Assembly (NCBI GenBank): GCA_964016885.1
Contig: OZ024744.1
Location: forward strand, 65,844,001-65,908,000
DNA: 64,000 bases
Direction: 5' to 3'
From: Eledone cirrhosa
Taxonomy: Eukaryota
Shown: one piece after another, positions 1,556 to 60,480 of the stretch
How positions within the stretch are numbered: the first letter of the stretch is position 1
How the letters are laid out: each line of letters opens with the position of its first letter
Translations under genes and position numbers: made by a program
The notes under the pieces: model-generated
What the model was told of the DNA's origin: nothing
Seen by the model: the letters and a program-made list of their open reading frames with translations, nothing else
Database searches by the model: none

Positions 1556-1652
1556 TTGATAAATATATAGACAAACAGACAGACAGATAAACAGATAGAC
1601 AAATAGAAAGCTAGCTACAACAGAAACAGTATGAGTTGAAATAATATATTAC

Positions 1653-1797
1653 CTGTGAGGTATATGTCGTTGTCCATTGAGAAGAGCCAGTATAACATTT
1701 CCTAGTGCTGAAAGGCTCAGCGAGACATTATTAGGATCTTTCGACTTTGAGCAACTCCCAAGATCAATGAAATGTAAGCGACTCCTTCCACCAGCCA
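1653..1797 (-). CDS. KIF26: KIF26-like coding exon (switch II region)
   Basis: (V)[47 protein letters not shown](R). TTTAG acceptor, GTAAT donor, 145 nt. The gene continues beyond position 1. Confidence 0.92.
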
Positions 1798-1944
1798 CTA
1801 AATCAACCGAAAAATGTAAATAGTCAGTGAGGTCTATAAGGATTACGCTAGTCTGGTATAAACTAGTTTTAAGCTACTCCACAAGAAACTGAAATGAATT
1901 GTGAAGCATGCAGAACAATTTTCTTCCCACTATGTTGTAACAAG

Positions 1945-5592: not shown

Positions 5593-6276
5593 TCGCTATA
5601 TAATGAATGTATGTCGTCTGATAACATTCTATTACATTCCATTAAAAACCAGATTTCCTTATAAGTAAGTAAAATAACTGTGGGAAATTACTTTCTTGAA
5701 ATTATTTTCTGCAACTCTTTCTTTGAGAGTTTATAATAACCAACGCTATGTTTTTGTTTTGTTTTCTTTCTCCAACTAAGAGGCACATAGTTCAACTAAT
5801 TGAAAATCGTTTTTATATACATCATTCAATACATCTTTCTTAACTTATAGATTTAAATATTTACCATTGGCAAACTTGAGTTATTTCCCTTAGATAATTG
5901 CAATATTTGGTGTGTGTGTGTGTTTGCGAGTGTGCGTGTGCGCGTGTATGCATATAGGATGTGAACCATCACTTGATGATGATGATGATATCATCTATGT
6001 ATATACTTATCTGTATATCTATATATATACACAGGCGTACACGTGTTTATGTGTATGTATGAATGTCCTCATATCTATGTATGTGTGTGCGTGTGTGTGT
6101 TTGTATGTATGTATGTATGTGTGTGTGTGTGTGTATGTACATGTATATGTGTGTATGTACATATGTATGTGTGTATCAATGAATGTACGTACATGTGTGA
6201 GTGTGCGTACATGTAAGTTTTAATTGCAACTTAATAAGAGAAGGCTTGAAACCTGTTTCACTCGTAACTAACTCAC

Positions 6277-6435
6277 CAGATGTTGAACGTGCTGCAATTG
6301 CTGCATCGAGGTAGTAAGCAGCCTGATCGGCAGTTGGAGCCCTTAATTCACTTTGATTCTCCAGCTGGGTACCACAAATAGGGTCCTCACGAAGATACAC
6401 CCCTGGGGCAGTAGAGACACCTGTCTCTGTACCAA
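6277..6435 (-). CDS. KIF26: KIF26-like coding exon
   Basis: (V)[71 protein letters not shown] is typical of KIF26. TGCAG acceptor, GTGAGT donor, 159 nt, phase 1-1, in frame with the upstream exon. Confidence 0.93.
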
Positions 6436-6705
6436 CTGCAATGAAAAACACAAAACAGAATTGACAGTTAGATTTGATTGTTTAAGAAATAATTCTTAAT
6501 GTCTTTCGTTACCATATTTCTAATGAAAGACACTGCCTTAAAAGAAATTTGAAATAACCGAAAATTTGGAGGAATTTAGTCTTATAGCTATTAAGACTTT
6601 CATTACTATATTTCTAATTAAAGATACTACCTAGAGTTAAAAAAAAAAAAATCGAAACTAATCAAGAAATTTGGAGGGATTTAATCATATAACTAACCTT
6701 CTCAG

Positions 6706-29334: not shown

Positions 29335-31322
29335 AGAGAGAAGCTAGACGTCAGGTGTACGTCAGGGAGGCTGAGAGTAGGAGGTTTGTCAATGTTCTGC
29401 GTTGGGAAGATCAGAGGCGTGCGGTGTTCCACATTGCAAGACAGTGTGTCAGTGCAAATCAGGATGTTGTTGGAGATAAATGTGTCCAGAATGATGCAGG
29501 TGTACTTAGTGTCACGAATGACCAGAAAAAGGAGGCCTGGAAATGTCATTATGAGAGACTGATGAATGTGGAGAACGAATGGGAGAGAGAGAAATTACCC
29601 TCAGTAGATCCGACAGAGATTGACGAATATAGGGTCCAAGAAGCGATTAAGGAAAAGAAAAATAGTAAGGCTGCTGGACCATCGAGGATAGTTGCTGAGA
29701 TGCTGAAGGCATCAGGGGACGTAGGCACTAAACTGGTTCCACGCATCATCAATCAGGCTATATATGGTGATGTCATCCCAAAGACTGGTGCAGCAGTATT
29801 CTCATAAATTGCTTCAAAGGTAAAGGGGATGCTCTGGAGAGAAGCAATTATAAGGGTATAAAACTGATGGATCAGGTTATGAAAGTGGCAGAAAGGATAT
29901 TAGCATAACTAATTAGAGAAAGGGTCAAACTAGATGAAATACAGTTTGGTTTTGTGCCTGGAAAGAGTACAACAGATGCCCTCTTCTTGGTGAGACAATT
30001 ACAAGAGAGGTTCTTAGAGAAAAATAAGCCACTATACTTAGCCTTTGTTGACCTAGAGAAGGCCTTTGATAGGGTACCCCGATCTGTCATCTGGTGGTCC
30101 CTAAGGAAACTAGGTGTTGAGGAATGGCTTGTGAGGACAGTGCAAACTTTGTACAGAGGTACTGTCAGTAAAGTCAGGGTAGGAATGGAGTTTAGTGAGG
30201 AATTCCAGATACAAGTAGGAGTACATCAAGGTTCGGTCCTCAGCCCGCTCTTGTTCATTATAGTCCTCCAAGTCATAACAGAGAAGTTTAAGACTGGCTG
30301 TCCTTGGGAACTTCTCTATGCTGATGATCTGGTTCTTATAGCAGAATCAGTAGAGGAGCTAGAGAATAAATTCTGGCTACAGCAGTTGGAAGCAAGAGGA
30401 CTGAGAGTGGACCTAGCTAAGACAAAAGTGTTGATGAGTAGAAAAGAGGATAAAACTTTGATTCCGTCAGGCAAATGACCATGTTCGATATGCAGAAAAG
30501 GAACTGGCATAAATTCTATAAAATGCACACAATGCAGATCCTGGGTACACAAGAGATGTAGTGGGATAGCAGGCAAACTAACAGGTGGGGAGAAATACGT
30601 ATGCAGTAGATGTACAGGGAAATTAGACAGTAGAAGTTGCATTGATAGACACATTTTTCAAATGCAGGCGGGTGCTATAGAAGTGGTAGATAGCTCCCGG
30701 TACCTAGGAGATCAGATTAGCATGGGAGGGGGGTGTTCCAAAGCTATAGTATCTAGAATAGGGACGGGTTGAAAGAAGTTTAGGGAGCTGCTTCCTCTGC
30801 TGACGAAGAAGGGTTTCTCCCTGCGTTCGAAAGGCTGGTTATATGATGCCTGTGTGAGGAGCGCGATGCTGCATGGTAGTGAGACATGGGCAGCAACTGC
30901 AGAGGATATGCGACGGTTGTAGGGAAATGAGGCAAGCATGCTCCGTTGGATGTGCAATGTCAATGTGTGTGATCGACCCAGCATAAATGTGTTGAGAGAG
31001 AAACTGTGTCTGAGAGAGAAACTGTGTCTGAGAGGGATAGAATGTAGTGTGTGAGAGAGGAGACTGAGGTGGTATGGACATATGATGCGTATGGAGGATG
31101 CCTGATGGGTGAAGAAGTGCCAGGAAATGCCAGCTGAAGGAAGACGTGGTAGAGGTAGACCACGAAAAACATGGGCAGAGGTAGTGAGAACAGACCTCAG
31201 ATCGCTGAAGCTCACGGTGGAGATGACGAAGGACCGTGACAAGTTGAGAGATGCTGTGCTGAATAAGACCTGTCCCACCCTTGCAAGCAGGGAAAAGCAG
31301 ACGTAAAATGATGATGATGATG
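29335..31322 (+). mobile_element. RTE LINE-B, 5'-truncated and disrupted (RT + PHD-like finger + C-terminus)
   Basis: FVDLEKAFDRVPR, GVHQGSVLSPLLF, LLYADDLVL, CSICRKGTGINSIKCTQCRSWVHKRC, GRGRPRKTW. Internal stops and frameshifts. (ATG)n tail. Confidence 0.93.
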
Positions 31323-44598: not shown

Positions 44599-44962
44599 TG
44601 TATATATGTATATATACTTATATATATATATATATATACATATGTATATATATACACATACATACACATATGTTTGTGTATGTTTTCCATACTGCCAACT
44701 ATATGAGTATACATGTGTACACACCTTATATATGTGTGTGTATGTGTGTATATGTATATATGAATATATGTATATATACATATATGTATATATACATATG
44801 TATATATACATATATCCACACATATGTTTGTGTATGTTTTCCATACTGCCAGCTATAAACACACACACACACTCAAACTATATATGCATGAATATATATA
44901 TATATATATATATATACATACAATATATTAATAAATGGAAACTATATTTATAAAACAATATT

Positions 44963-45028
44963 TATGTTATTATATATATTTCAAGGGCAACCAAGGCAAA
45001 TTATGGTGCGCTTTCATCAGATAAAATA
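44963..45028 (-). ncRNA. Type-I hammerhead ribozyme (mirror arm)
   Basis: Same core on the minus strand, with one mismatch in stem I. Confidence 0.65.
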
Positions 45029-45096
45029 CAGATTTGTTTTATAAATAAATATTGACATTTCCAGGTATGTCAATATTTATTTATAAAACATATCGG

Positions 45097-45162
45097 TATT
45101 TTATCTGATGAAAGCGCACCATAATTTGCCTTGGTTGCCCTTGAAATATATATAATAAAATA
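45097..45162 (+). ncRNA. Type-I hammerhead ribozyme
   Basis: TATTTTAT-CTGATGA-[AAG..GCACCA/TGGTTGC..CTT]-GAAA-TATATA-TA-ATAAAATA. 8-bp stem I. Predicted cleavage after AUA at 45154. Confidence 0.72.
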
Positions 45163-45312
45163 AATATTGTTTTATAAATATAGTTTCCATTTATTAATAT
45201 ATTGTGTATTTACTCCACTAAACTGTTGAGTGCTTTATATCAGTTATAAACATTTTTAGGCTTGTTGAATCCCAACAAATTAAATATAACCTCTGCATAT
45301 ATATATATATAT

Positions 45313-45580
45313 ATCATCATTTCATTTTACGTCCACTTTTTCCCTGCTTGCAAGGGTGGGACGGGAACTGATGCTGGCTTGATTTCTACAGCTGGATGCC
45401 CTTCTTAACACCAACCTCATTTACAGTGAGTGCTGGGTGCTTTTTTGCCATGGCACCTCCACGACCACAGCTGAGTAAACTGGAGCAATGTGAAATAAAG
45501 TGTCTTGCTCAAGGAAACAACACATCACCCGGTCTTTCGATGGCAAGGCCAATGCTCTAACCACTAAGCCATGTGCCTCC
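45313..45580 (-). mobile_element. SINE-A with internal deletions
   Basis: Head and tail intact, two deletions. Confidence 0.85.
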
Positions 45581-46602: not shown

Positions 46603-46950
46603 CCCCGACTACTCCATCCTCCCACTTCCACTCACACCACCCTTTCTCTGTAAAGTTATGTTTGTACCACAACGTCCAGTCCAAACTAAAGAGGTTGTGT
46701 AGGTGTCATGACAAAAAAAAAATCACCCCATCCACACTGTAAAGTGGTTGTGTAGGAGACACGGTAAAAAGGCTCCCAGTCCACACTGTAAATGTGGTTG
46801 GTGTTAGGAAGGGCATCCAGCTGTAGAAAACCCGCCAGATACAGTCCTATACAAGCGAGACATGGTTACCCGACCAATCAAGTGGGACAATTCCCGTCTA
46901 ACTCATGTTAGCGTGGAAGATAGACGTTAAACGATGATGATGATGATGAT
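46603..46950 (+). mobile_element. LINE-A subfamily 3' UTR
   Basis: GTACCACAACGTCCAGTCC...GTTGGTGTTAGGAAGGGCATCC...(ATG)n. Confidence 0.8.
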
Positions 46951-47211
46951 GTATGTATATATGCTAGCGTGGAAGAACGAAGGTAAAACGGTGATGATGA
47001 TAATGATATATATATACACAACCTTATTAGCAGGGAAAACTGCTGTTAAATTATGATGATGATGATGATGATGATGATGACTCATACACACACACTTACA
47101 CAGAATATTAAGAATCACGTGGCAATGGCAAGATGGTGTAACCAACAAGAGGAGAGTAAGAGGAATGGTTAATATAACAGAAATTGATAACTTTATATGA
47201 TCAATACAATA

Positions 47212-49880
47212 GAGATGAATGGAATACTCCTGTAGATGACAATGGAATACTCCTGTAGATGAGAATGGAATACTCCTGTAGATGACAATGAAATATACTC
47301 CTGTAGATGACAATGGAATACTCCTGTAGATGACAATGGAATACTCCTGTAGATGAGAATGGAATACTCCTGTAGATGACAATGAAATATACTCCTGTAG
47401 ATGAGAATGGAATACTCCTGTAGATGAGAATGGAATATACTCCTGTAGATGACAATGGAATACTCCTGTAGATGACAATGGAATACTCCTGTAGATGAGA
47501 ATGGAATACTCCTGTAGATGACAATGGAATATTCCTCTAGATGAGAATGGAATACTCCTGTAGATGACAATGAAATATACTCCTGTAGATGACAATGGAA
47601 TACTCCTGTAGATGAGAATGGAATATACTCCTGTAGATGACAATGGAATACTCCTGTAGATGAGAATGGAATACTCCTGTAGATGACAATGAAATACTCC
47701 TGTAGATGAGAATGGAATACTCCTGTAGATGAGAATGGAATACTCCTGTAGATGAGAATGGAATACTCCTGTAGATGACAATGGAATACTCCTGTAGATG
47801 AGAATGGAATACTCCTGTAGATGACAATGGAATACTCCTGTAGATGAGAATGGAATACTCCTGTAGATGACAATGGAATACTCCTCTAGATGAGAATGGA
47901 ATACTCCTGTAGATGAGAATGGAATACTCCTGTAGATGAGAATGGAATACTCCTGTAGATGAGAATGGAATACTCCTGTAGATGAGAATGGAATACTCCT
48001 GTAGATGACAATGGAATACTCCTGTAGATGACAATGGAATACTCCTGTAGAGGAGAATGGAATACTCCTGTAGATGACAATGGAATACTCCTGTAGATGA
48101 CAATGGAATACTCCTGTAGAGGACAATGGAATACTCCTGTAGATGACAATGGAATACTCCTGTAGATGACAATGGAATACTCCTGTAGAGGAGAATGGAA
48201 TACTCCTGTAGATGACAATGAAATATACTCCTGTAGATGAGAATGGAATACTCCTGTAGATGACAATGGAATACTCCTGTAGATGAGAATGGAATACTCC
48301 TGTAGATGAGAATGGAATACTCCTGTAGATGAGAATGGAATACTCCTGTAGATGAGAATGGAATACTCCTGTAGATGACAATGGAATACTCCTGTAGCTG
48401 AGAATGGAATACTCCTGTAGATGACAATGGAATACTCCTGTAGATGACAATGAAATATACTCCTGTAGATGACAATGGAATACTCCTGTAGATGAGAATG
48501 GAATATTCCTGTAGATGACAATGAAATATACTCCTGTAGATGACAATGGAATATTCCTGTAGATGACAATGGAATACTCCTGTAGATGACAATGAAATAT
48601 ACTCCTGTAGATGACAATGGAATACTCCTCTAGATGACAATGGAATACTCCTGTAGATGGCAATGGAATACTCCTGTAGATGAGAATGGAATACTCCTCT
48701 AGATGACAATGGAATACTCCTCTAGATGACAATGGAATACTCCTGTAGATGATAATGGAATACTCCTGTAGATGACAATGAAATATACTCCTGTAGATGA
48801 CAATGGAATACTCCTGTAGATGACAATGGAATATTCCTGTAGATGACAATGAAATATTCCTCTAGATGACAATGGAATACTCCTGTAGATGATAATGGAA
48901 TACTCCTGTAGATGACAATGAAATATACTCCTGTAGATGACAATGGAATACTCCTGTAGATGACAATGGAATATACTCCTGTAGATGACAATGGAATACT
49001 CCTGTAGATGACAATGGAATATTCCTGTAGATGACAATGAAATATACTCCTGTAGATGACAATGGAATACTCCTGTAGATGACAATGGAATATTCCTGTA
49101 GATGACAATGGAATATTCCTCTAGATGACAATGGAATACTCCTGTAGATGACAATGGAATACTCCTGTAGATGAGAATGGAATATTCCTCTAGATGACAA
49201 TGGAATACTCCTGTAGATGACAATGAAATATACTCCTGTAGATGACAATGGAATACTCCTGTAGATGACAATGGAATATTCCTGTAGATGACAATGGAAT
49301 ATTCCTCTAGATGACAATGGAATACTCCTGTAGATGACAATGGAATATTCCTGTAGATGACAATGAAATATACTCCTGTAGATGACAATGGAATACTCCT
49401 GTAGATGACAATGGAATACTCCTGTAGATGAGAATGGAATATTCCTCTAGATGACAATGGAATACTCCTGTAGATGACAATGAAATATACTCCTGTAGAT
49501 GACAATGGAATACTCCTGTAGATGACAATGGAATATTCCTGTAGATGACAATGGAATATTCCTCTAGATGACAATGGAATACTCCTGTAGATGACAATGG
49601 AATATTCCTGTAGATGACAATGAAATATACTCCTGTAGATGACAATGGAATACTCCTGTAGATGACAATGGAATATTCCTGTAGATGACAATGGAATATT
49701 CCTCTAGATGACAATGGAATACTCCTGTAGATGACAATGAAATATACTCCTGTAGATGACAATGGAATACTCATGTAGATGACAATGGAATATTCCTGTA
49801 GATGACAATGGAATATTCCTCTAGATGACAATGGAATACTCCTGTAGATGACAATGGAATATTCCTCTAGATGACAATGA
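47212..49880. repeat. 23-bp minisatellite (GATGACAATGGAATACTCCTGTA) with 25-bp variants, about 115 copies
   Basis: Directly visible. Source of all the YRSIPLSSTGVFH pseudo-ORFs. Confidence 0.97.
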
Positions 49881-49959
49881 AGCTTGTTTGAAAGCCGAAA
49901 AAGAAAAGGTAAATTGTGAGAAAGATTGCTAACAGTTAATATTTTAATATACAGTTAAC

Positions 49960-55790: not shown

Positions 55791-55903
55791 ATATATATAT
55801 ATATATATATAAGTAGAAGTGGTATTTAATTTGTTGGAAGTCCGACAAACATAAATGTTTATAACTGATTTAGAGCACTCAACAGTTTCCTGGAGTAAAT
55901 ATT

Positions 55904-56350
55904 CAATGATATTAAATAAATGGAAACTATATTTATAAAACCATATTTATTTTATTATATATATTTCAAGGGTACCAAAACACATTGGTACGCTTTCATC
56001 AGATAAAATACAAAGTTTGTTTTATAAATAGACACATACCCATGAAAATCATACCTTTTCGGTTGGATATTCTCTGGATAGTGGAAAAATATTAGGGATT
56101 TTCAAACTTATGGGTGAATATGCAAATGAATATGTAAACCCATAAGTTTGAAAAATCCCTAATATATTCTCACAATCCAGAGAATATCCAACCAATAAGG
56201 GATGATTTTCATGGGTATGTCTCTATTTATAAAACAAACTTTGTATTTTATCTGATGAAAGCATACCAATGTGTCTTGGTACCCTTGATATATATATAAT
56301 AAAATAAATATGGTTTTATAAATATAGTTTCCATTTATTTAATATCATTG
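55904..56350. repeat. About 447-bp DNA palindrome (PLE-type fold-back); the element extends left to about 55811
   Basis: Arms of about 210 bp with scattered mismatches and a spacer of about 20 nt near 56116-56135. Confidence 0.92.
55948..56010 (-). ncRNA. Type-I hammerhead ribozyme
   Basis: TATTTTAT-CTGATGA-AAG-C-GTACCAA(TGTGTT)TTGGTAC-C-CTT-GAAA-TATATA-TA-ATAAAATA. The mirror arm (56244-56306) has GAAA>GATA. Confidence 0.75.
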
Positions 56351-56565
56351 TATCATCATCATCATCACCGTTTTACGTCCGTTCTTCCATGCTAGCATGG
56401 GTTAGACGGGTTGGCCTGTTGTGGGCAGTGTCTGGTCGGCTGACCATATGTATGTATATGTATGAGTATATATTGAAACATTTATATGTCTATGTGCTGT
56501 GAGCACACATACACACACATATATATCATCATCATCATCATATATATGTACCTATATATATATGT

Positions 56566-57067: not shown

Positions 57068-60000
57068 TCATCATCATCATCACCGTTTTACGTCCGTTCT
57101 TCCATGCTAGCATGGGTTAGACGGGTTGTCCTGTTGTGGGCAGTGTCTGGTCGGCTAACCATGCCTTGCTTATACAGGAACTGATTTTGGCTTGATTTCT
57201 ATAGCTGGATGCCCTTCCTAACACCAACCTCATTTACAGTGTGGGCTGGGTGCTTTTTTGCCGTGGCACCTCCACGACCACTTTGCAGTGGGAGGGTGTG
57301 GGGGCATATTGTCTATATGCTTCAGCTTGTACCCATGGGAGGTCGGGTACTCTGTATTACTGCGTGACGCCAGAGGTCACAGTCGTGTGTCATCGCCTTT
57401 GAGAGGTGTAATTGGGTAAGGTTGGCTTTTATCACCTCATCCCAGGTCTTCTTGGGTCTCCCCACTCCGCGGTTTCCAATGACTTCTAGTGCTCTGCACC
57501 TTTTTATGCAGCTGTCATCCTTCATACGCATCCCATGTGCATACCAACACAACCGCCTCTCCTGCACACAGCATTTGATTCCTCTTATGCTCAGTCTCTC
57601 TCTCAATTCATTTATGGGTTGCCATTTGCGTATATTACTATTACACATCCATCGGAGCATGCAGGCTTCGTTTCTTTCTAATCTACGTACGTCTTCCACC
57701 TTCAGCGCCCAGGTCTCACTACCATGTAACATTGCTGTTCGTATACACGCATCATACAGTCTGCCTTTCATTTTGAGGGAAAAGCCTTTTGCAGCTAGCA
57801 GTGGCAGTAGTTCCCTGAACTTCTTCCATCCCGTTCTTACCCTAGTTATTGTACTTTCTGAACACCCACCTCCGCTGCTAATTCGGTAACCTAGGTAGCA
57901 GAAGCTGTCTACTGTTTCTACAGAGCCCTCCCAGAGATTGGTGGTACTTGTTTCCTGTGGCTGTTTGCTGCTTGCTGTCCCAGCACAGCTGCTACATGTG
58001 AAGCCTACATTCTTAATTAAGCTTCCTGAGATTCCGCTACATCTCTTGTGTACCCATTGTTTGCATTTGGGGCAGAGAATGGAGTTCCTACCTACACCTT
58101 TCCTACATACTGAGCAAGGCCATTTCCCTGAGGGGATCTGGGTTCTGTTTTCTAGTCTACTTACATGGACCTTAGTCTTTGTCAGGTTGACTTTGAGACC
58201 CTTTCTTTCTAATCCCTACTTCCAAGTTTGGAATTTCTTCTCTAGTTCTACCATAGATTCAGCTATAAGTGCGAGGTCATTTGCATACAGGAGTCCCTAT
58301 GGGCATCCGGTCTTAAACTCCTCCGTTATTGCCTGCAGGACTATGATGAACAGGAGAAGGCTGAGAACAGAGCCCTGGTGGACACCAACCTGTACGCTAA
58401 ATTCCTCGCTATACTCATTGTTAATCCTAACTTTACTGACTGCTCCCCTATACATGGCTTGTACAGCTTTCACAAGCCATTCATCTACTCCTAGTTTTCT
58501 AAGAGCCCACCAGATTATAGCACGTGGAACTCTGTCAAAGGCTTTCTTGAGATCGACGAATGCCAGGTAGAGTGGCTTACTTTTAGCTAGGTACTTTTGA
58601 TGTAACTGCCTCACAAGGAAGAGGGCGTCAGTGGTGCCTCTTCCTGGTACAAACCCAAATTGCATCTCATCTAATTTCACCCGGTCCCTAATCAAATGTG
58701 CTATAACTCTTTCTGTTACTTTCATGACCTGTTCCATCAGCTTTATACCTCTATAGTTTCCTCTATCTAGTGCATCACCTTTACCTTTGTAGCAGTTGAC
58801 AATGATGCTACTGCACCAATCTTTTGGTATGACACCTAGTATTACCTGGTTAACAATACGTGTGGTTATAGTGTGACCTACAGACCCAGATACCTTCAGC
58901 ATCTTGGCAGCTATACCCGATGGACCGGTTGCCTTCCCCATCTTCATATCTTTGATTGCCTTACTTACTACGCTGCTGCTGACTTGTACTCTATAGGGTC
59001 TACTTGGGGTAGGGTCTCTTCTTCCCATGCATTCTCTTCATTTAGTAATCTATCATAATGGCTCTTCCATGCATCTTTCTTCTCAGCACTTGTGAGGGCA
59101 AGCTCACCTTTATCATTCCGGATACATTTCTCTCCAATGACATCACAACTCTCTCTGACACATTGCCTCGCAATCTTGAACACCTCCTGTTTCTGGTCCC
59201 CACGTTGCAAAACATGCTTGAATTTTCTATCCTTTGCTTCCCTCCTAGCTAAGTATACTTGTCGCCTAGCTTCCCTCTTGGTCTCTATGTAATGTACCCT
59301 GCTTCCCCCGTTCTTCCATTCTTTCCATTCTCTTGGCCTTAACTGCCTCATCTACCTTATTGTTCCACCACCAAGTCACTCTCCTCCTGCTTGTGGTCTT
59401 ACTCCAGCCACAGACCTCATCTGTCGCCTCTAGTAAGTTATTTTTTAGGAACTCCCAGTGCTCTTCTACATTGAATGTCTATCTGTTCTTTACTGTCGTA
59501 GGCGTTGAGTAAAATATCTTTAAATCTAGCTGAGGGGGTCTTTCTTCTCCAGGTTGGTCTCTGTTTCCAGGTTCGTCTAGTTCTGACCGTGAGGTCGCTG
59601 ACAACTAGGCTATGTTGCGAGGTACATTCCTCACTAGGGAAGGCTTTTGTGTTTATGACCGTCCATCTGTCATGTCCTCTGATGAGGATAAAATCTATCT
59701 GACTAGAATGCTCCCCTGATCTATAGGTGATCAGGTGGTTGTCAGGTTTTTTGAAGTTTGTGTTACATATCGACATGTCATTGGCGTCGCAGAATTCTAG
59801 AAGTCTGAATCCTTCTTCATTTCTTGTGCCAAGCCCATGGCCTCCATGGACTCTATTGAAGCCGTCACAGTGTTTACCTACGTGTCCGTTAAAATCTCCT
59901 GCAATGATTAGGAAGTCATTGTCGTTTGTTAGAGCAATAGTGTGCATTAGGGACTCATAAAACCTATCCTTAAGTTCGTCTGGCAACCCCGATTGGGGTG

Positions 60001-60480
60001 CGTAAGCTGATATTATTGTGGTAATTATTTTATTTAGGACTAGTCTGAGTTTAATGATTCTTGCATTTACCCTGTACACTGAGATTACTTTATCTACCCA
60101 CTTGTCAGCTAGTAGTATACCTACACCACCCATCCCATCGTCATTTCCCACCCAGAAAAATTTGTAGCACCGACTTTTTTCCTACAAGGACTCTAGCAGA
60201 CTCTCCTCTCCATCTAGTCTCTTGCACACAGCATACATCTATTTCCTTTCGCTCTAGCATCTCTACAATTTCTCCTGCTCTTCCTTTCATTGTGCTTACA
60301 TTGATTGTACCAACTCGGAGTTTTGGGTAATTGTCAACATTCAATGGTAAGGGTCGATTTTTGCTGGGGTGTGCGTGTACTTCCTGTCTCTGAATTGAAG
60401 CTTCACATGGGTGCTTGGTAGCTCGCGGATTCATATTCATTTTCATTTATTAATTCAAGGTTGCTCCATTTATTCTCAGC
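57068..60480 (-). mobile_element. Near full-length RTE-clade LINE-A (APE endonuclease + RT + PHD-like finger), inactivated
   Basis: APE motifs VGTINV, CVQETRW, SAYAPQ, AGDFNGHVG, SQIDFIL, SQHSLVV. RT motifs YRGIKL, FVDLKKAFDRV, GVHQGSVLS. C-terminal GRPKKTW. (ATG)n tail. Split by several frameshifts and stops. 60480-61050 may be 5' UTR. Confidence 0.95.

What the first reader, a model, noticed from the sequence alone, without database searches (positions are those of the whole stretch)
44920..45297. DNA palindrome carrying a complete hammerhead ribozyme on each strand
Seen: a 286-bp fold-back in which each arm has an 8-bp stem I, CTGATGA, stem II, GAAA, a self-complementary ATATATAT stem III and an AUA cleavage triplet. 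One arm continues into a ~90-nt tail ending in (TA)n. Transcription from either direction gives one sense ribozyme plus its antisense, so cleavage would compete with long-hairpin formation. On the KIF26 strand the antisense arm is made first and could silence the ribozyme. Established: PLEs carry hammerheads and make inverted termini. Inference: these short non-coding units may be a retrozyme-like, self-regulating family in cephalopods. This is the best candidate for an undescribed system in the window.
Basis: partly seen in the sequence, partly recalled or inferred. Interest (0 to 1): 0.75.

Follow-up and report, generated by a model that had tools for sequence, protein, structure and literature searches.

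The report
Mirror-image stub of Hydra-clade Penelope
This 286-base mirror-image sequence is two short, back-to-back copies of the ribozyme-bearing end of a protein-coding Penelope-type jumping gene that has thousands of copies in this genome, likely built once when both cut ends of a (TA)n repeat copied the gene's RNA; it is an ordinary footprint, not a separate self-regulating RNA family.

Summary
The palindrome (44920-45205) and the two hammerhead motifs are real; the left one has a stem I mismatch. They are not a new non-coding family. The unit is the end repeat (pLTR) of a protein-coding Penelope-like element (PLE) found whole in this genome (741-aa ORF with Hydra-clade motifs). A 27-base ribozyme word has 2,542 exact matches. 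Head-to-head copies have a different axis at almost every site (30 junctions in 32 pairs), so each was built anew; no short tandem arrays were seen. 46 of 54 pairs join a short end to a long, tailed end, the published PLE signature; the (TA)n is the target, not a tail. Opposite-strand hammerhead pairs are already reported for PLEs, including a Hydra-clade element. What the copies add: 5' ends stop at a sharp edge 45 bases before a donor-like site (a likely transcription start), none stop at the ribozyme cut, both arms share rare variants, and the ribozyme sits inside a predicted 179-base intron. No RNA data were available. This scan noted the same architecture and a two-ended priming reading many times on other DNA. 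Verdict: new member of a known kind; interest low to moderate.

The parts
44920..45058 (-). Short arm: inverted, 5'-truncated pLTR copy (family positions q1-q139; q1 = window 45067), ending at the family's short end
44963..45028 (-). Type I hammerhead motif of the short arm; core intact, stem I mismatch at 44966 (private change); predicted cut after 44971
45058..45059 (.). Head-to-head junction of the two arms (about 1 base of overlap); differs from site to site in the family
45059..45297 (+). Long arm: 5'-truncated pLTR copy plus tail (q-8 to q231)
45097..45162 (+). Type I hammerhead motif of the long arm; palindromic stem III (dimer type); predicted cut after 45154
45206..45297 (+). Tail, 92 bases: in the parent element this is leader sequence between the pLTR and the ORF; holds a small hairpin at about 45261-45277
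45065..45243 (+). Predicted 179-base intron (GTATGT ... TATCAG) enclosing the hammerhead; inferred from motifs only
   Evidence: parallel in PMC2377424
44895..44919 (.). (TA)n-rich left flank, part of the target microsatellite
45298..45314 (.). (TA)n right flank, part of the target microsatellite
   Evidence: all 30 loci run into TA-rich sequence at this point
55812..56351 (-). Second head-to-head insertion of a related subfamily (about 80% alike), longer arms, hammerhead core at 56002

Best explanation
The palindrome is two 5'-truncated copies of the hammerhead-bearing end repeat of a protein-coding Hydra-clade Penelope-like retrotransposon, joined head to head inside a (TA)n repeat, and was likely made in one insertion event in which both cut strands of the target primed reverse transcription on the element's uncut, unspliced RNA. 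Shown: family membership, parent ORF, variable axis, one short and one long outer end, (TA)n targets, variants shared by both arms. Inferred: the two primers start at two fixed internal sites (about q139 and q231), each next to a UAU-type word that can pair with the (TA)n end; the two cDNAs run towards the RNA's 5' end (a likely transcription start near q-46) and are trimmed and joined. This copy has lost the upstream promoter-like motif and the likely start site, so it would be dead on arrival; any read-through RNA is predicted to fold into the long hairpin and not cut. In the parent the ribozyme would work, if at all, as a dimer or with protein help. Confidence in the identity is about 0.95; in the building mechanism about 0.65.
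For: Parent: L066 (G000:C7) reads hammerhead unit, ORF (743 codons stop to stop), about 1.4 kb untranslated, pLTR; longer family copies L031 and L032 run from the unit through that region into the ORF end; most of the 30 ORF-start loci fetched run into family sequence upstream. ORF motifs RWR, DKT, CxCX5C, CxxC and CxH fit the Hydra definition and read alongside Hydra-1_Obim by eye; Atlas look-alikes score 0.96-0.98 and carry GIY-YIG, RVT_1 or HTH_animal on part of their members. 2,542 exact matches of a 27-base core word, control 0; among the first 100 listed, 13 head-to-head pairs within 5 kb with 13 different spacings (78 to 3,917 bases), 0 tail-to-tail, 0 same-strand pairs under 1 kb. In 75 distinct sites: 54 head-to-head pairs, 46 short+long, 7 long+fragment, 1 long+long, 0 short+short; in the core-only sample 16 of 17 short+long; 30 different junctions in 32 close pairs. 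The short arm reaches further 5' in 20 of 32 pairs, the long arm in 5, 7 ties, which simple fold-back of one cDNA cannot give. A stem III A/G variant agrees between arms in 25 of 29 pairs, p 0.00015; the window's two arms share a T at q102 seen in 1 other of 143 arms. 38 of 118 arms start at q-46 to q-37, none at q-48 to q-130; D. virilis Penelope has its intron 46 bases after its start site (PMC2377424). 0 of 30 tail-selected loci start at the predicted cut.
Against: No RNA data: start site, intron, transcription and cleavage are all untested. 11 of 118 arms, the second window element and about a third of the 30 ORF-start loci run past q-46, so longer or tandem templates also exist and the edge is not a limit for all copies. 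4 of 29 pairs disagree at the A/G site, and a G at q29 disagreed in all 4 pairs that had it. Shared variants could also come from later arm-to-arm conversion or from one source copy being active at a time. Pfam and PDB sequence searches found no RT or GIY-YIG match for the ORF. Frangieh et al. report priming at RNA sites not homologous to the cut DNA, unlike the short pairing inferred here. Samples are the top-scoring 30 of each search, not random draws.
Confidence: 0.78

Rival explanations
1. Same element, but the second arm is made by self-priming: one cDNA (or an antisense template) folds back on a small hairpin and copies itself, as proposed for Adineta PLEs.
For: Proposed in PMC3846280 (passages). 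Arms share variants. A hairpin is predicted at about q-44 to q+2, and L005, L010, L023 and L024 have only a 30-35 base inverted piece at the axis.
Against: The tail-less arm reaches further 5' in 20 of 32 pairs; a copy of the long arm cannot hold sequence that the long arm lacks, and a copy of the short arm cannot supply the tail. In L031 the short-ended arm is about 0.8 kb longer and holds the ORF end. Junctions do not sit at one hairpin.
Confidence: 0.12
2. The sharp 5' edge near q-46 is a reverse-transcriptase stop or an RNA processing site at the 5' base of a hairpin, not a transcription start; the template is a longer tandem or circular RNA.
For: The predicted hairpin begins at about q-44; many ORF-linked copies run through the edge.
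Against: A polymerase moving 3' to 5' on the RNA would meet the hairpin at its other side (about q+2; inference). A conserved ATTTGCAT word lies about 50 bases upstream and a donor-like site 45 bases downstream, as at a promoter.
Confidence: 0.2
3. One reading: the short palindrome is itself the mobile unit, a retrozyme-like non-coding family whose cutting is controlled by its own antisense arm.
For: Short units are abundant; the hairpin is predicted to block the ribozyme; retrozymes are argued to derive from PLE pLTRs (bioRxiv 2026.07.22.740005).
Against: 30 junctions in 32 pairs; the two repeats include a pair 80 kb apart on one contig. No head-to-tail neighbours with two hammerheads among 138 arms and none under 1 kb among 100 listed matches. 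Opposite-polarity ribozymes cannot release a monomer. This copy lacks the upstream motif and the q-46 edge.
Confidence: 0.03
4. This copy has been kept by the host as a regulatory ribozyme or hairpin in a kinesin (KIF26-like) intron.
For: Kinesin exons lie on the - strand of the window; both cores are intact.
Against: The copy is young (96-98% like others); core changes across 97 arms (8 of 1,067 bases) are not significantly rarer than in flanks (44 of 3,464; p 0.19); the arm that is sense on the kinesin strand has the damaged stem I; the nearest exon seen is over 33 kb away.
Confidence: 0.03

Closest known systems
Hydra-clade Penelope-like elements (Craig et al. 2021, PMC8557442; section 11, passages and supplement rows read), e.g. 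Hydra-1_Obim and Penelope-13_HM
   Same: C-terminal endonuclease ORF with RW(K/R), DKT, CxCX5C, CxxC and CxH; canonical hammerhead; (TA)n targets. Penelope-13_HM is listed with a 5'-truncated inverted copy and the same hammerhead on both strands.
   Different: A different family: hammerhead sequence unlike that of Hydra-1_Obim; about 1.4-1.5 kb of 3' untranslated DNA makes the element near 4 kb, not under 3 kb; stem III is all A-U.
Inverted pLTR with one-sided tail in EN+ PLEs (Adineta Pen2a, PMC3846280, passages; D. virilis Penelope, PMC2377424, passages)
   Same: Head-to-head inverted, 5'-truncated pLTR; tail on one arm only; a donor-like site about 45 bases after a likely start.
   Different: Tail about 90 bases rather than 30-40; no target-site duplication can be read in (TA)n; most copies have no ORF at all.
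Minimal PLE hammerheads (Cervera and de la Pena 2014, PMC4209133; parts 1-2 of 4 read)
   Same: Type I motif with palindromic helix III, dimer-type; the paper already notes dual motifs 100-700 bp apart on opposite strands and ties single motifs to truncated PLEs.
   Different: Longer stem I (8 pairs) and an imperfect, long stem II; activity untested here.
PAc internal initiation (Frangieh et al. 2024, PMC11167929; parts 1-2 of 4 read)
   Same: Two internal start sites bounding the tail, both strands cut and extended, uncut RNA as template.
   Different: Poseidon clade, in vitro; there the start is said not to be homologous to the cut DNA, here both ends abut TA-like words of the parent.
Metazoan non-LTR retrozymes (PMC7229834, passages; bioRxiv 10.64898/2026.07.22.740005, part 1 of 5)
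   Same: Short, AT-rich, non-coding, type I hammerhead, PLE-related.
   Different: Retrozymes are head-to-tail arrays of same-strand ribozymes that yield circles; this family is head-to-head and continuous with a coding element.

Membership tests
EN+ Penelope-like element | Single ORF with RT and GIY-YIG endonuclease flanked by pLTRs | tested here: met
   L066 unit-ORF-UTR-pLTR; motifs and Atlas look-alikes. Pfam and PDB sequence searches were blank.
EN+ Penelope-like element | Type I hammerhead in the pLTR | tested here: met
   core intact in 90 of 97 arms
EN+ Penelope-like element | Inverted 5'-truncated copy at the 5' end; tail on one end only | tested here: met
   46 of 54 pairs short+long
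EN+ Penelope-like element | Retained spliceosomal intron | tested here: inconclusive
   Donor-like and acceptor-like words kept in most copies; all 5 upstream ATGs of L112 lie between them; no RNA to show splicing
Hydra clade | RWK-type motif, DKT in place of DKG | tested here: met
   RLRWRAF and SDKTNNLY in L066 and L068; definition
Hydra clade | CxCX5C linker; CxxC and CxH near the C terminus; no CCHH | tested here: met
   CNCRNKSNC, CSLC, CKH in L069 and others; L066 itself lacks part of the linker; absence of CCHH judged by eye
Hydra clade | Insertion into (TA)n | tested here: met
Hydra clade | Placement in the RT tree | not tested
   Published proteins were compared by eye only
Hydra clade | Generally under 3 kb | tested here: not met
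   About 4 kb in L066; the paper gives this as a tendency
Non-LTR retrozyme | Head-to-tail tandem units, at least two consecutive same-strand hammerheads | tested here: not met
   0 among 138 arms and 0 under 1 kb among 100 of 2,542 listed matches; one 104-base head-to-tail duplication in L043, 1 of 12 loci
Non-LTR retrozyme | Non-autonomous, no link to an ORF | tested here: not met
   Continuous with the ORF element
Non-LTR retrozyme | Expressed as circular RNA | not testable with these tools
   No RNA holder listed
Hammerhead ribozyme (activity) | Self-cleavage | not testable with these tools
   Active monomer fold -4.0 against -7.7 kcal/mol for the best fold of the 66-mer; full hairpin about -193

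The most novel reading that the evidence does not exclude
In this Hydra-clade family the hammerhead lies wholly inside a 179-base first intron that also holds every upstream ATG, so splicing would yield a ribozyme-free message while the unspliced, uncut RNA is the template; both ends of a cut (TA)n repeat pair with two fixed UAU-type sites on one RNA and copy to its capped end, so the thousands of short palindromes are a genomic record of the element's transcription start and of two-ended priming.
Probability: 0.35. Interest if true: 0.55.

Novelty: new member of a known kind. Interest (0 to 1): 0.3.

Why it matters
As a feature it is an ordinary retrotransposon footprint and should not be counted as a new ribozyme system. 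Its value is as a natural data set: how PLEs make inverted ends and what their hammerhead is for are both open. This family gives sharp coordinates to test (two start sites about 90 bases apart, a 5' edge, an intron around the ribozyme, no ends at the cut site) in the little-studied Hydra clade.

Tried and rejected
Rfam scan: only microRNA-type hairpin matches below their cut-offs, no hammerhead. Pfam (6 proteins in 2 calls) and PDB sequence search of the ORF: nothing relevant. Whole-unit folding of a family copy: z -0.97, no special stability. Sequencing runs: no RNA holder listed; three contig runs of one sample and unknown kind showed no joint with GT..AG ends at the predicted intron, and their summed depth, which rises about tenfold across the q-46 region, is not a copy number and is not used as evidence. 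The counts held duplicated loci (removal of duplicates failed) and were replaced; only its per-locus list for the tail-selected set is used. One search is an earlier, smaller count on 58 loci. Pile-ups of 5' ends at q12, q30 and q-131 to q-140 were set aside as likely alignment breaks against the reference copy. Idea that copies stop at the ribozyme cut: 0 of 118 arms at q85-93, 0 of 30 tail-selected loci. Idea of selection on inserted cores: not significant (p 0.19). Target-site duplication: unreadable in (TA)n. Paper searches listed no paper on this family; the search for Penelope-like, twin priming and inverted listed 2 papers, neither read. Repbase, Dfam and most subscription papers are not searchable here, so the family may be catalogued. 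Supplements of the bioRxiv preprint were not seen.

Full report
Observation. The inverted repeat is there: arms 44920-45058 and 45067-45205, three mismatches, 8 bases apart. Each arm holds a type I hammerhead motif, on opposite strands and facing outwards. The right one has an 8-pair stem I, CTGATGA, an imperfect stem II, GAAA, the palindrome ATATATAT and a predicted cut after 45154. The left one has a private change at 44966 that breaks one stem I pair. Such motifs are not chance: 3 in the window against 0.017 per shuffled window. Rfam does not recognise them. I number the family from q1 = window 45067.

It is a repeat family tied to a coding element. The right arm has 40 scored relatives at 96-100% identity out of 1,024 candidates; a 27-base core word has 2,542 exact matches. 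Some copies run on upstream through about 1.5 kb of AT-rich DNA into the end of an ORF. Locus L066 holds the whole layout: unit with tail, ORF of 741 residues from its ATG, untranslated region, second pLTR ending near q143. The 'tail' is therefore the leader that lies between the 5' pLTR and the ORF. Pfam and PDB searches missed the protein, but it shows the marks that Craig et al. give for the Hydra clade: RW(K/R), DKT, CxCX5C, CxxC and CxH, and it reads alongside their Hydra-1_Obim (by eye, no tree). L066 reads YRDY at the catalytic motif; L068, L071 and L073 read YRDD. Atlas look-alikes carry GIY-YIG or RVT_1 on part of their members. The host is likely a cephalopod; I did not test this.

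The palindrome is not the mobile unit. In 75 distinct sites from three searches I found 54 head-to-head pairs; 32 close short+long pairs have 30 different junctions. Among the first 100 of the 2,542 matches, listed by position, 13 head-to-head pairs have 13 different spacings, and there is no tail-to-tail pair and no same-strand pair under 1 kb. One short head-to-tail duplication (L043) and one tail-to-tail pair (L146/L152) were seen elsewhere. The defining retrozyme feature, tandem same-strand ribozymes, is not met. The architecture is in print: inverted truncated pLTR with a one-sided tail, opposite-strand hammerhead pairs 100-700 bp apart, and a Hydra-clade element with the motif on both strands.

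How it was likely built. Outer ends are fixed: about q134-147 (short) or q231 (long); 46 of 54 pairs have one of each, and 16 of 17 in the sample chosen on the core alone. This matches the two internal start sites and two-strand extension shown in vitro for PAc. In the parent, q231 is followed by TATAT and q139 by GTAT, so a cut (TA)n end could pair there (inference). Either arm may reach further 5' (short 20, long 5, tie 7), which argues against fold-back of one cDNA. The arms share a source: a stem III variant agrees in 25 of 29 pairs and this copy's arms share a T at q102 found in 1 other of 143 arms; four discordant pairs, later conversion or one active source at a time limit the claim of a single RNA. 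Both cDNAs pass through the ribozyme, and none of 30 tail-selected loci begins at the cut, so the template was uncut.

The 5' edge and the predicted intron. 38 of 118 arms begin at q-46 to q-37 and none at q-48 to q-130. An ATTTGCAT word about 50 bases upstream is kept in diverged subfamilies, and GGGTATGT follows 45 bases after the edge, with TATCAG at q177. D. virilis Penelope has an intron 46 bases after its start site. In L112 all five upstream ATGs lie between the two sites. I infer a transcription start near q-46 and a 179-base intron around the ribozyme. Against this, 11 arms, the second window element and about a third of ORF-start loci run past the edge, so longer templates exist, and no RNA was available.

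What this copy does. It starts at q1 and q-8, so it lacks the upstream word and the edge; it would not be transcribed from its own promoter. On either strand the antisense arm comes first, and folding gives stem I a pairing probability of 0 when the sense ribozyme is complete. Even alone, the active fold is 3.7 kcal/mol above the best fold, and PLE hammerheads of this type are reported as weak, dimer- or protein-dependent. Cores of inserted copies are not significantly better kept than flanks (p 0.19).

Earlier notes. 556 findings of this scan hold the same words in at least 48 genomes, several with a two-ended priming or run-off reading, and some in this genome; a look-up by sequence found none for this family. 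They are unchecked notes, not support; my counts of ends and the edge were noted before I read them.

Verdict. Real feature, known architecture, new family of a known clade. Interest 0.3.

Noticed in passing
window 55812-56351: Second head-to-head hammerhead insertion of a related subfamily; stem II keeps its pairing with a different sequence; both arms reach past q-46; the inverted arm has a changed GAAA. It interrupts a LINE-like fragment.
   Followed up: partly
window 1649-1873, 6176-6481, about 11274 (- strand); G000:C28:65840003-65840143: Kinesin motor exons with KIF26-like words (motifs recalled); a Pfam kinesin match lies 4 kb before the window.
   Followed up: partly
L032:5269-6390, L033:7011-8811: A second Hydra-like ORF family (37-48% identical to L066) with an asparagine-rich linker; the protein search had 77,347 first-look candidates, so this clade may be very abundant here.
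   Followed up: no
L104, L105, L110, L117, L124: ORF-linked copies whose far 5' end is a short inverted piece of the tail (about q183-231), a small long-end arm.
   Followed up: no
L004 (junction upstream of the match): 72 bases of unrelated DNA sit between the two arms, as if captured during joining.
   Followed up: no
L136 and L137 (G000:C12, 80 kb apart): Identical junctions, likely one insertion inside a duplicated segment.
   Followed up: no
window 46927-49954: About 3 kb array of 23-25 base repeats.
   Followed up: no
window 57322-60446 and fragments near 30000, 32000, 44000, 55400, 62000: Broken copies of a LINE-type element with endonuclease and RT remnants (judged by eye from translations).
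   Followed up: no
L031:6354-9901: Long minisatellite array of about 45/90-base units beside the longest palindrome found.
   Followed up: no
family position q29 (window 45095): A T/G variant that differed between the two arms in all 4 pairs carrying it; unexplained.
   Followed up: no
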